A stretch of DNA of 64,000 bases from Stylophora pistillata (Eukaryota), in contig NW_019217911.1 of NCBI RefSeq assembly GCF_002571385.2, positions 62,001 to 126,000 of the forward strand. The letters are read 5' to 3'. Each line of letters begins with the position of its first letter. Within the stretch, counting starts at the first letter, position 1. A program made the translations under genes and the position numbers. Below the pieces are notes generated by a model. That model searched no databases. It was not told where the DNA came from and saw only the letters and a list, made by a program, of their open reading frames with translations. Below are positions 8,977 through 11,900 of this stretch, piece after piece.

Positions 8977-11900
8977 TCAGAGGAAGAAACCATTTCTCTA
9001 GGCTCCATAACGTGATAAAGACACGAGGGATGTTGGGAGAATTCAAGGAAAGCTTATAAATCACTAGCCGAAGAGGAGTGATTTAAAAGCTTCCGTGTTC
9101 TATTGCTTTTATGACATAACTGGTTACATGTGGGCTCTATAACCTTCTTAAGCAACAGCTTGGAAACTGAATTGACCAATCAGATGATGCGTTGTACTTT
9201 CATTGAAAAGGAAGCTGCCATATTTTAAAATATAACGGAAAGGAGAATCGTCCTTTCTAGTGGAACAAATATGTCGCAAAATAAAGTCGTGTTTTACCTT
9301 ATTGATAAAGATTTGGAATCGTTTGTCCGCGGCTTCTGAGAAAGTTGAGCAATCAAAACGATGGAAGGCCTACAATTAAAAATTGGCATAACTCAATAAT
9401 TGTCGCATAAACCGTTACACATTCATTGTTACATTACGACCATTGCACGAAGCTTTTATCCCCTTCATTTTCCTTCCCCATAACTAAACCCAACGAAGGC
9501 CTCATGAATGTGGCATCAGTAAATCGCATTTATGTTTTTATCTTAATCTTTAACATCTTGACGTTCTTAAACACTTTTTTTTTTTTACCTGTGGCACCTG
9601 GACAGCTACTTGGCAAATAGAGCCTGGCACATCAGTTGAACAAACTTTCACTTTGCCAGCAAAATGTGACTTCACTGTTAAGAAAAACATACGTACAACC
9701 TTCTACTGGTCCTCTACTGTACAAATATTTTTTCTTTATGACAAGTGACTTTCAACCAGCCACCCAACCTCCATCCTTACCCAAGGGAATTAACAAATCG
9801 ACAGTGGTTTAGCGTGGTCTGTACTCTTACCGACAACGACATTCGTCATCGCAGTGGTCAAAATGTTTTTACCACAATGTGGATGTCATATAAAACGATT
9901 CTTTCAGTGCATGACAAGCTGAGTGACACGTTGACGCGAGCATTGTTGCCTGTACTCTTATCGACAACGGCAAATTGGCCAATCAGATTGCAACATTACT
10001 GCCAATTGTGGTAAAAAAGGGAAATGGTCTATCCTTAAAGGTACTTAATTGTAAACAAAGGATATTAAAACATTTTCTGTTAAACAGTGAGTTCATTTCA
10101 GGTGACACAAAACTGCTGAATATGAGGGTCTGTCTGTAATACTTTGACCTGCAAAGAAGATCAGCGCCATGTTATAAACAACTAAGCTGCCCTAATTACT
10201 GTCTCATATCAATTTAAGGGAAAAGGCCTGGTCAAGAGTGAAAAGAGTGAAGACAAGTGAAGTCAAGAGTGAGTCAAGAGTGAAGACAAACCGAAGTAGT
10301 GCTTGTCGACCATGGTAATCATTTATCTTCAACAGGTTTACGATTTAGAAGGAAATTTTCCAATTAACACATCAAGAGCTAAAGGACTTCCCGTCATTGA
10401 CAATTAATTGTTGCTCAAAAGGGTTAAATTCTCATGCAAAATTTCCAGCAAATATTGAAGTTCACAAGATCAAAAAACGAGCTTTTTACATTTTGTTTGA
10501 CTTACAATACTATTTGTCATACTGAGTAAAACGTCACTAGACCTGCAGAGATATAAGCCGTAATTTTTAACACACGATGTTTCAGCAGCGTCTTGTCAGA
10601 ATTTCAAAATATTCCAGAATTAGTCAACAACACTTTTCATACTAGAGAAGGGGTCATCACGTATCCTTGATTTTTCCCCTCTCACCACGCCCTGGCACTC
10701 ACCATCCATTCAGACACCACATTCTGACACGAGAAAAGTCGACATCATGTGACTCTTTTGGTTGCTGGTGAAGATGCTCGAAGATGTGCTGCAAATGATA
10801 AAAAGTGCAACTTCTGATGTGCCCATGTTTCCTCCATCATTTTACAAGGTAATACAACCAAAGACCTGTAATGCTTTTCAAAAGTGTTTTAATTTAAAAC
10901 AAGGTAGCAGTAATTAATGTAAAACAAATATTTTTGCACATGTGCGATTGATCAAAACGCATCACGTGACCGATTGTCCTCCAACTGACACTTGGGGATA
11001 TCCAAGGATATACCTCAAGTGATTTTCCCCAATTTTCAACCTTACGTCCAATACGGAAAACGCTGCACTCAAAATTTAACCAAGATGAGAACGTTGTGTG
11101 GTTGTTACAGAAGAAGGAACATGTTTTTTTTGTTCATAAACTCGTAGCAGAGAACACCGAAAGGTGACCATCCCACGTAATAAACGGTAAGCTATTCATA
11201 AACATTTTTCCCGCCCGTTGAAAATTATTTGAAGGATATGAAACACATTAGCCTCTAATTGGCGCGAGAGTCTGCTCGTCTATATATGTCTTTGAACATA
11301 ATATGTTCCGGAAAACTGTTCATATCTCAGAACAGATAAATTAAACTTCCTTGGTTAAATATTCGTGCATATTTTCGCGCCAAATGAAGGCTCTTGTTTA
11401 TTATTCAAGAGGTTAATTTTATCAAATGCATACCTGAACATGTTCCCAATTTTGCATGAGGAAGACATCTGTTTGATCAGCAATGATGACTTCAATAGAT
11501 GAAAGGAAATCATATTCGTGGGACTTCTCTCTGTAAAGAGATATGCATGATAAATAAATGTACAATTTTACCTTTGTTGTAGCACATTGTGAAATTTACC
11601 ATGAATACTAAATGAACTAAGTGGACTGCAATTTTGTCTGAACTCATGTGCGTGATTTCAAAATCTAACAGGTAACTGCGATTTTAGGAATACCCTGCAT
11701 TTCCAATGATTGTCCTCAGTCCAAGAGGCGAAGCCACAATAATATCTGATGAGTAAAATTTGGCGTACAACTTCACACATTTTTTCATGACTGAGATTCC
11801 AATCCTAAAACAGTCATCAATGTTCCCAGCAAACATCTGTTTAAAATCTTCAGGCCTGTTTTCTTTTGAACTGCTTGCGTCTTCTGTTTCACCAAATTGC

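What the first reader, a model, noticed from the sequence alone, without database searches (positions are those of the whole stretch)
9666..10065. Hidden AT-AC (U12 minor spliceosome) intron in UTP25
Seen: no convincing GT donor follows exon 15. The minus strand instead reads TGT TTT A|ATATCCTTTG, matching the U12 5' consensus, and ends TTTTCTTAACAGTGAAGTCAC|AT TTT GCT, with a U12-like branch site about 12 nt from a terminal AC. Splicing gives FNRKCFNFAGKV, which aligns without gaps to the vertebrate segment as I recall it (FNKYCVNMQGQV). A decoy AG sits 9 nt upstream of the AC, so GT-AG predictors would mis-model this junction. Established: AT-AC introns are rare and can be rate-limiting. Inference: this ribosome-biogenesis gene depends on the minor spliceosome here. 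The intron also tolerates a roughly 245-bp repeat insertion (9770-10016).
Basis: partly seen in the sequence, partly recalled or inferred. Interest (0 to 1): 0.7.

Follow-up and report, generated by a model that had tools for sequence, protein, structure and literature searches.

The report
Ancient minor intron in coral UTP25
A coral gene for ribosome assembly carries a rare AT-AC intron that RNA reads show is cut out exactly, likely by the cell's second ("minor") splicing machine; it is an ordinary member of a known intron class, likely old in animals and likely lost in vertebrates.

Summary
Confirmed, but ordinary in kind. Window 9666-10065 (minus strand) is a 400-nt phase-1 AT-AC intron of single-copy UTP25, with a consensus U12 donor and a branch motif 13-14 nt from the end. 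Raw RNA reads join 10066 to 9665 in 4 of 4 runs (25 reads, 2 studies); no GT-AG or decoy-AG joint was listed. The genome holds U11, U12, U4atac and U6atac genes; U11 and U12 can pair with these signals. It is not hidden: RefSeq XP_022789415.1 has the junction right, though GenBank PFX26374.1 drops both flanking exons. Faulty models of another coral, an anemone and amphioxus run into the intron as N-I-L, and a sponge-like record as S-I-L (GT subtype). So the intron is probably ancestral in animals; it is absent from human and mouse minor-intron tables. The only U6atac found is the published 'CC variant', which pairs poorly with this donor. No sign of rate-limiting retention at this depth. The scan has noted other AT-AC introns elsewhere, none in UTP25. 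New member of a known kind.

The parts
10066..10148 (-). UTP25 exon 15; ends with the first base of a near-invariant Asn codon
   Evidence: Pfam PF22916 positions 234-259; RNA joints on both sides; single copy in the genome
9666..10065 (-). AT-AC intron 15, 400 nt, phase 1
   Evidence: 25 junction reads in 4 of 4 runs; RNA contig; RefSeq protein P0228
10057..10065 (-). U12-type donor ATATCCTTT
   Evidence: sequence; can pair at +4..+9 with the genome's U11
9677..9687 (-). U12-type branch motif TTTTTCTTAAC; candidate branch A at 9678 or 9679
   Evidence: 10 pairs (one G-U) with the genome's U12 when one A is bulged; the branch point itself was not mapped
9675..9676 (-). decoy AG, 2-3 nt after the branch As and 9 nt before the true end
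   Evidence: no joint to it listed; the Pocillopora damicornis model P0003 carries KSH before FAGK, as use of this AG would give (inference)
9666..9667 (-). terminal AC acceptor
9589..9665 (-). UTP25 exon 16
   Evidence: tblastn; RNA joints
9788..10018 (.). dispersed high-copy repeat of about 231 bp inside the intron; a TTCCCTT 7-mer lies at both ends (10017-10023 and 9783-9789), a possible target-site duplication
   Evidence: 64 matches listed among 40 scored of 965 candidates, full-length copies 76-84% identical; loose ends at 9788-9792 and 10016-10018; self-comparison. A duplication was not evident by eye in the 9 other copies aligned.
6240..29282 (-). whole UTP25 (DIEXF/def) coding region, about 20 exons
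   Evidence: tblastn of P0001, P0002, P0006; exon flanks; only introns 11-16 were checked with RNA

Best explanation
Intron 15 of this coral's UTP25 gene has AT-AC ends, is removed exactly at those ends in RNA, and is likely excised by the minor (U12) spliceosome. Shown: the ends, the signals, the spliced junction, and the four minor snRNA genes in the genome. Inferred mechanism: U11 pairs with donor positions +4 to +9; U12 pairs with the branch motif and bulges an A; the 3' end is then chosen by distance from the branch point, so the AC at 13-14 nt is used and the AG 2-3 nt after the branch As is too close. The 231-bp repeat lies between the signals and does not disturb them. Inferred history: the intron was present early in animals (AT-AC in corals, an anemone and amphioxus; GT-type in a sponge-like record) and was lost in vertebrates, where an ordinary intron appears to sit 14 nt further downstream.
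For: Junction reads 25 in 4 of 4 runs, with the strand bias expected of a minus-strand gene; contig support in a further study. The donor matches ATATCCTT and the branch motif differs from TCCTTAAC by one base (definitions in passages of PMC2831892). The branch A lies 13-14 nt from the end, against a stated optimum of 11-13 nt (passage of PMC3584512). U12 (97 bits), U11 (two copies), U6atac and U4atac all pass Rfam cut-offs; pairing registers. Conservation: of 514 proteins held, 431 aligned up to the junction residue; 410 continue normally and 21 do not. Five of the 21 continue with I-L, the in-frame reading of a U12 donor: Porites harrisoni P0265, Actinostola P0122, Branchiostoma belcheri P0300, sponge-like P0375 (S-I-L, ending soon after) and, doubtfully, P0440 (background I-L frequency 0.6%). 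Close relatives of three of them carry the normal spliced sequence (P0008, P0299, P0072). UTP25/DIEXF/C1orf107 is absent from the human-mouse minor-intron tables while NOP2 and E2F1 are found. A frog isoform leaves the frame after G-Q with V-S, and a fish model resumes at that V (P0341, P0021).
Against: No knock-down or lariat mapping, so use of the minor spliceosome is inferred. The only U6atac found has GCCGA in place of AAGGA and makes only 3 standard pairs and 1 G-U pair with donor +4..+9, with mismatches at +6 and +7. Conservation rests on peptide read-through in faulty models, not on DNA; codon degeneracy hides the exact bases. The vertebrate intron position rests on two protein records. 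None of 80 metagenome loci has an intron at this site, but that search kept the most contiguous 80 of 424 hits and so favours transcripts and intron-poor genes. Only about 2-6% of each raw run was read, and joints under 3 reads per run are not listed.
Confidence: 0.93

Rival explanations
1. An AT-AC intron spliced by the major (U2) spliceosome, like those of vertebrate sodium-channel genes.
For: Such introns exist (passage of PMC2831892); this genome's U6atac pairs poorly with the donor.
Against: U2-type AT-AC introns have G at +5; here +5 is C and the donor is the full U12 consensus. The branch motif fits U12 at the U12 distance, and purines, not a pyrimidine tract, lie between it and the AC.
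Confidence: 0.03
2. The real junction is GT-AG, using a weak GT (10071, 10056 or 10044) and the AG at 9675, 9651 or 9645; the AT-AC match is chance.
For: Nine in-frame GT-AG combinations without a stop exist; some public models of relatives appear to use such sites.
Against: No such joint was listed in 4 runs, against 25 reads for AT-AC. All but one combination change the length of a segment that is gapless in most homologues. Transcript-derived proteins of this cluster carry the AT-AC product.
Confidence: 0.01
3. The intron is a rate-limiting switch that ties ribosome biogenesis to minor-spliceosome activity, for example under stress.
For: Slow splicing of a subset of U12 introns is reported (abstracts of PMC4066798 and PMC4615840 in search listings); the intron seems to have been kept for a long time; the sponge-like record P0375 looks like an unspliced read-through.
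Against: Junction counts equal those of its neighbours, and depth in bin 9648-9763 is about what the exon part alone gives. Two RNA-like contig sets have no cover at 9698-9748 (contigs drop rare forms). A 3000-genome survey argues for largely neutral minor-intron evolution (abstract of PMC10639083). Vertebrates appear to do without it.
Confidence: 0.12
4. The intron is a recent gain in this coral lineage, and the read-through peptides elsewhere are coincidence.
For: Absent from mammalian tables; no DNA of relatives was seen.
Against: Four records from distant animal groups leave the normal sequence at the same residue with I-L, at 0.6% background; minor-intron gain is described as rare (passages).
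Confidence: 0.04

Closest known systems
U12-type (minor) spliceosomal introns, AT-AC subtype (e.g. human and mouse NOP2 and E2F1 introns)
   Same: ATATCCTT donor, TCCTTAAC-like branch motif close to an AC end, no pyrimidine tract, phase 1, one such intron among many GT-AG introns.
   Different: The host gene UTP25 is not in the human or mouse minor-intron tables searched; one C-to-T change in the branch motif; a 231-bp repeat inside.
U12 subtype switching and lineage-specific loss (Lin et al. 2010, PMC2831892; Larue and Roy 2023, PMC10639083)
   Same: AT-AC in some lineages, GT-type at the same codon in another, absent in others; loss is reported as commoner than conversion.
   Different: Here the loss is on the vertebrate side, which human-centred lists cannot show. 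The apparent vertebrate intron is 14 nt away and in another phase, so it is not a same-site conversion (inference from P0341 and P0021).
'CC variant' U6atac of cnidarians, Trichoplax, sponge, Acanthamoeba, Physarum, moss and oomycetes (Davila Lopez et al. 2008, PMC2396436)
   Same: [GU]CCGA in place of AAGGA, sole copy found, poor fit to a canonical donor.
   Different: That paper found no minor snRNAs in the coral Acropora millepora; here a stony coral has all four and an RNA-verified canonical AT-AC substrate.

Membership tests
U12-type AT-AC intron | Excised with AT and AC as terminal dinucleotides | tested here: met
   25 reads in 4 of 4 runs; the other two registers of the joint give no known pair of ends
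U12-type AT-AC intron | Donor ATATCCTT at +1..+8 | tested here: met
U12-type AT-AC intron | TCCTTAAC-like branch motif about 11-13 nt from the 3' end, no pyrimidine tract | tested here: met
   TTCTTAAC, As at 13 and 14 nt; optimum from PMC3584512
U12-type AT-AC intron | Host genome encodes U11, U12, U4atac and U6atac | tested here: met
U12-type AT-AC intron | Complementarity of donor to U11 and of branch motif to U12 | tested here: met
   6 pairs (one G-U) and 10 pairs (one G-U)
U12-type AT-AC intron | Donor pairs with the U6atac AAGGA box | tested here: inconclusive
   This genome's U6atac lacks the box (CC variant): 3 standard pairs + 1 G-U of 6. A known property of the lineage's snRNA, not of the intron.
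U12-type AT-AC intron | Splicing depends on minor snRNPs; lariat at the branch A | not testable with these tools
   needs knock-down or lariat sequencing
U12-type AT-AC intron | intronIC score above threshold | not testable with these tools
   intronIC and the genome-wide intron set were not on hand
U2-type AT-AC intron | G at donor +5 | tested here: not met
   +5 is C
UTP25/DIEXF | PF22916 NTPase-like domain followed by PF06862 Utp25_C | tested here: met
   4 of 6 exon pieces hit these families; named homologues

The most novel reading that the evidence does not exclude
This is an ancestral animal minor intron, missing from human-centred lists because vertebrates lost it and carry an ordinary intron 14 nt away, with a GT/AT subtype switch in sponges; and corals splice it accurately with a U6atac that cannot make the textbook donor pairing, so cnidarian minor spliceosomes hold the 5' splice site in another way. 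The intron is a ready reporter for that puzzle, raised in 2008.
Probability: 0.55. Interest if true: 0.42.

Novelty: new member of a known kind. Interest (0 to 1): 0.24.

Why it matters
Practical: several public gene models of corals, an anemone and amphioxus are wrong at this junction, and the one for this species loses about 50 conserved residues, so protein sets built on them mislead. Evolutionary: it is one example of a minor intron kept in early-branching animals and amphioxus but not in mammals, a pattern already expected from surveys. Mechanistic: it gives an RNA-verified substrate for the CC-variant U6atac, whose donor recognition was called hard to explain. None of this is a new system.

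Tried and rejected
GT-AG alternatives were enumerated; none was listed in reads. A second, AAGGA-type U6atac was sought: one exact hit for the shared 15-mer; 41 hits at up to 2 mismatches against 39 in the control and none exact; 4 of those 41 scanned with Rfam were not U6atac. The assembly may be incomplete. A shifted U6atac-donor pairing from duplexfold (-5.5 kcal/mol) was set aside because it uses bases that I recall as part of the catalytic core (recalled, not checked). The metagenome scan for orthologous introns gave only contiguous genes and transcripts. A search for short exon read-through ORFs found no candidate. In the joint table repeat-derived joints crowded out the exon joints (62 not shown), so table 8 was used. 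Broken models of Oculina (P0005), Acropora cervicornis (P0011) and Trichoplax (P0078, P0267) skip this region but do not show the donor, so they count only as suggestive. Literature: no UTP25/DIEXF mention in the listed rows of searches (20, 20 and 40 rows of 307, 573 and 91 papers); none in the supplements searched for PMC6717393, PMC8280824 (one file not searched), PMC6865273, PMC10639083 and PMC11347168, nor in the main text of the DROL1 preprint (its supplements are closed). The per-intron database of Larue and Roy (introns.info, FigShare) could not be read; Stylophora pistillata is in their species tree, so this intron may already be catalogued there. No follow-up explaining the CC variant appeared in the listings. 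Earlier scan notes concern other genes and did not move the reading.

Full report
Observation. The sequence is as described. On the minus strand exon 15 (10066-10148) ends in ...TGTTTTA, the intron opens ATATCCTTTG and closes TTTTTCTTAACAGTGAAGTCAC, and exon 16 (9589-9665) opens ATTTTGCT. The intron is 400 nt and splits an Asn codon after its first base. The 8-mer donor by itself is unremarkable in 64 kb (7 seen, about 5 expected), and two more ATATCCTT lie inside intron 13 with no joint listed. The case rests on position and on RNA.

RNA. Four raw runs from two studies were laid on 9300-12750, reading about 2-6% of each. The joint that skips 400 nt is seen in all four (6, 1, 10 and 8 reads). 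It shares two letters, and only one register gives known ends: AT-AC on the minus strand. The five neighbouring GT-AG joints have 36, 19, 17, 19 and 23 reads. No joint to the AG at 9675 or from the GTs at 10071, 10056 or 10044 is listed; the listing threshold is 3 reads from 2 starts. Depth in bin 9648-9763 (0.2-2.2) is about the 17% exon share of the bin, so there is little or no retention, at low power. A polyA contig from another study joins the two exons letter for letter, and contigs of two runs with genome-like cover carry both intron ends with no listed change.

Gene and organism. The exons hit Pfam PF22916 and PF06862, and exon 15 is single-copy. Exon 12 is identical to a protein that NCBI names Stylophora pistillata. 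RefSeq XP_022789415.1 has the AT-AC product. GenBank PFX26374.1 drops exons 15 and 16, uses a short false exon at 10503-10541 and fuses in a nested reading frame. The intron is thus missed by one annotation and found by another.

Machinery. The genome has U12, two U11 copies, U4atac and U6atac above Rfam cut-offs. U11 can pair with donor +4..+9, and U12 can form 10 pairs with the branch motif when one A is bulged. The As lie 14 and 13 nt from the end; PMC3584512 gives 11-13 nt as the optimum and says either A can serve (passages). This likely explains why the AG just after the branch motif is skipped (inference). The one U6atac found reads GCCGA where AAGGA is usual, and no second copy turned up. 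In the usual register it mismatches donor +6 and +7. This is the 'CC variant' reported for cnidarians by Davila Lopez et al. 2008, who call it difficult to explain (passages). It is a property of the lineage, not of this intron.

History. No eukaryotic genome of a relative could be read, so I used faulty protein models as a window on intron starts. A U12 donor read in frame from this Asn codon gives N-I-L (AT type) or S-I-L (GT type). Of 514 proteins held, 431 aligned to the junction residue; 410 go on normally and 21 do not. Four clearly leave the frame with I-L: Porites harrisoni, the anemone Actinostola, the amphioxus Branchiostoma belcheri, and an unnamed record closest to the sponge Amphimedon (60% identity), which has S-I-L where its cluster mates have the normal N. 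A fifth (P0440) may be a natural insertion. The other 16 are local indels, alignment slips or other breaks, among them the Pocillopora damicornis model with KSH before FAGK, as the decoy AG would give. Human and mouse tables of minor-intron genes lack UTP25/DIEXF/C1orf107 but hold the controls NOP2 and E2F1. A frog isoform and a fish model point to an exon boundary 14 nt downstream in vertebrates. The simplest reading is an ancestral animal U12 intron with one subtype switch, lost in vertebrates. Subtype switches and losses are described in PMC2831892 (passages). The 80 metagenome loci have no intron here and 79 of 80 keep the Asn, but they were selected for contiguity.

Repeat. A dispersed element of about 231 bp (9788-10018) fills most of the intron, with many genomic copies at 76-84% identity. 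It touches neither splice signal. Its family was not identified.

Papers seen: passages of PMC2396436, PMC2831892, PMC3584512, PMC10639083 and PMC2846911; term searches in the supplements of PMC6717393, PMC8280824, PMC6865273, PMC10639083 and PMC11347168; a term search in the main text of bioRxiv 2020.10.19.345900; all others as listings with abstract starts only. The online intron databases behind these papers could not be read and may already list this intron.

Verdict. A real, RNA-verified, textbook AT-AC intron in a group known to have minor introns. The regulatory suggestion is unsupported. The added value is modest: an annotation trap, a probable old intron lost in vertebrates, and a substrate for the CC-variant question. 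Interest 0.24; new member of a known kind.

Noticed in passing
L015:1501-1628 (G000:C133:450103-450230): The only U6atac found is the CC variant (GCCGA for AAGGA), which pairs poorly with a canonical U12 donor; known for cnidarians since 2008.
   Followed up: yes
window 17468-19735 (-): A 756-codon open frame nested in the long intron 9 of UTP25, on the same strand; GenBank model PFX26374.1 fuses part of it into UTP25.
   Followed up: no
window about 20885-21654: Two near-identical stretches about 490 nt apart inside intron 9, seen as repeated translations; tandem duplication or assembly artefact.
   Followed up: no
window 11531-11693 (-): Intron 12 starts GTATTCCTAA, two bases off the GT-type U12 donor, but has no U12 branch motif near its AG; possibly a converted or minor-like intron.
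   Followed up: no
window 13261-13359 (-): Contig-derived protein P0001 begins in the 3' end of intron 9 and runs in frame into exon 10, suggesting an unspliced or alternative 5' form.
   Followed up: no
L012:1501-1604; L013 and L014: A degraded second U12 copy below the cut-off, and two intact-looking U11 copies.
   Followed up: partly
window 11004-11011 and 11232-11239 (-): Two more ATATCCTT 8-mers inside intron 13, in stretches that collect multi-copy reads; no joints listed.
   Followed up: partly
window about 2400-3360: An assembly gap; the window holds 962 N in all.
   Followed up: no
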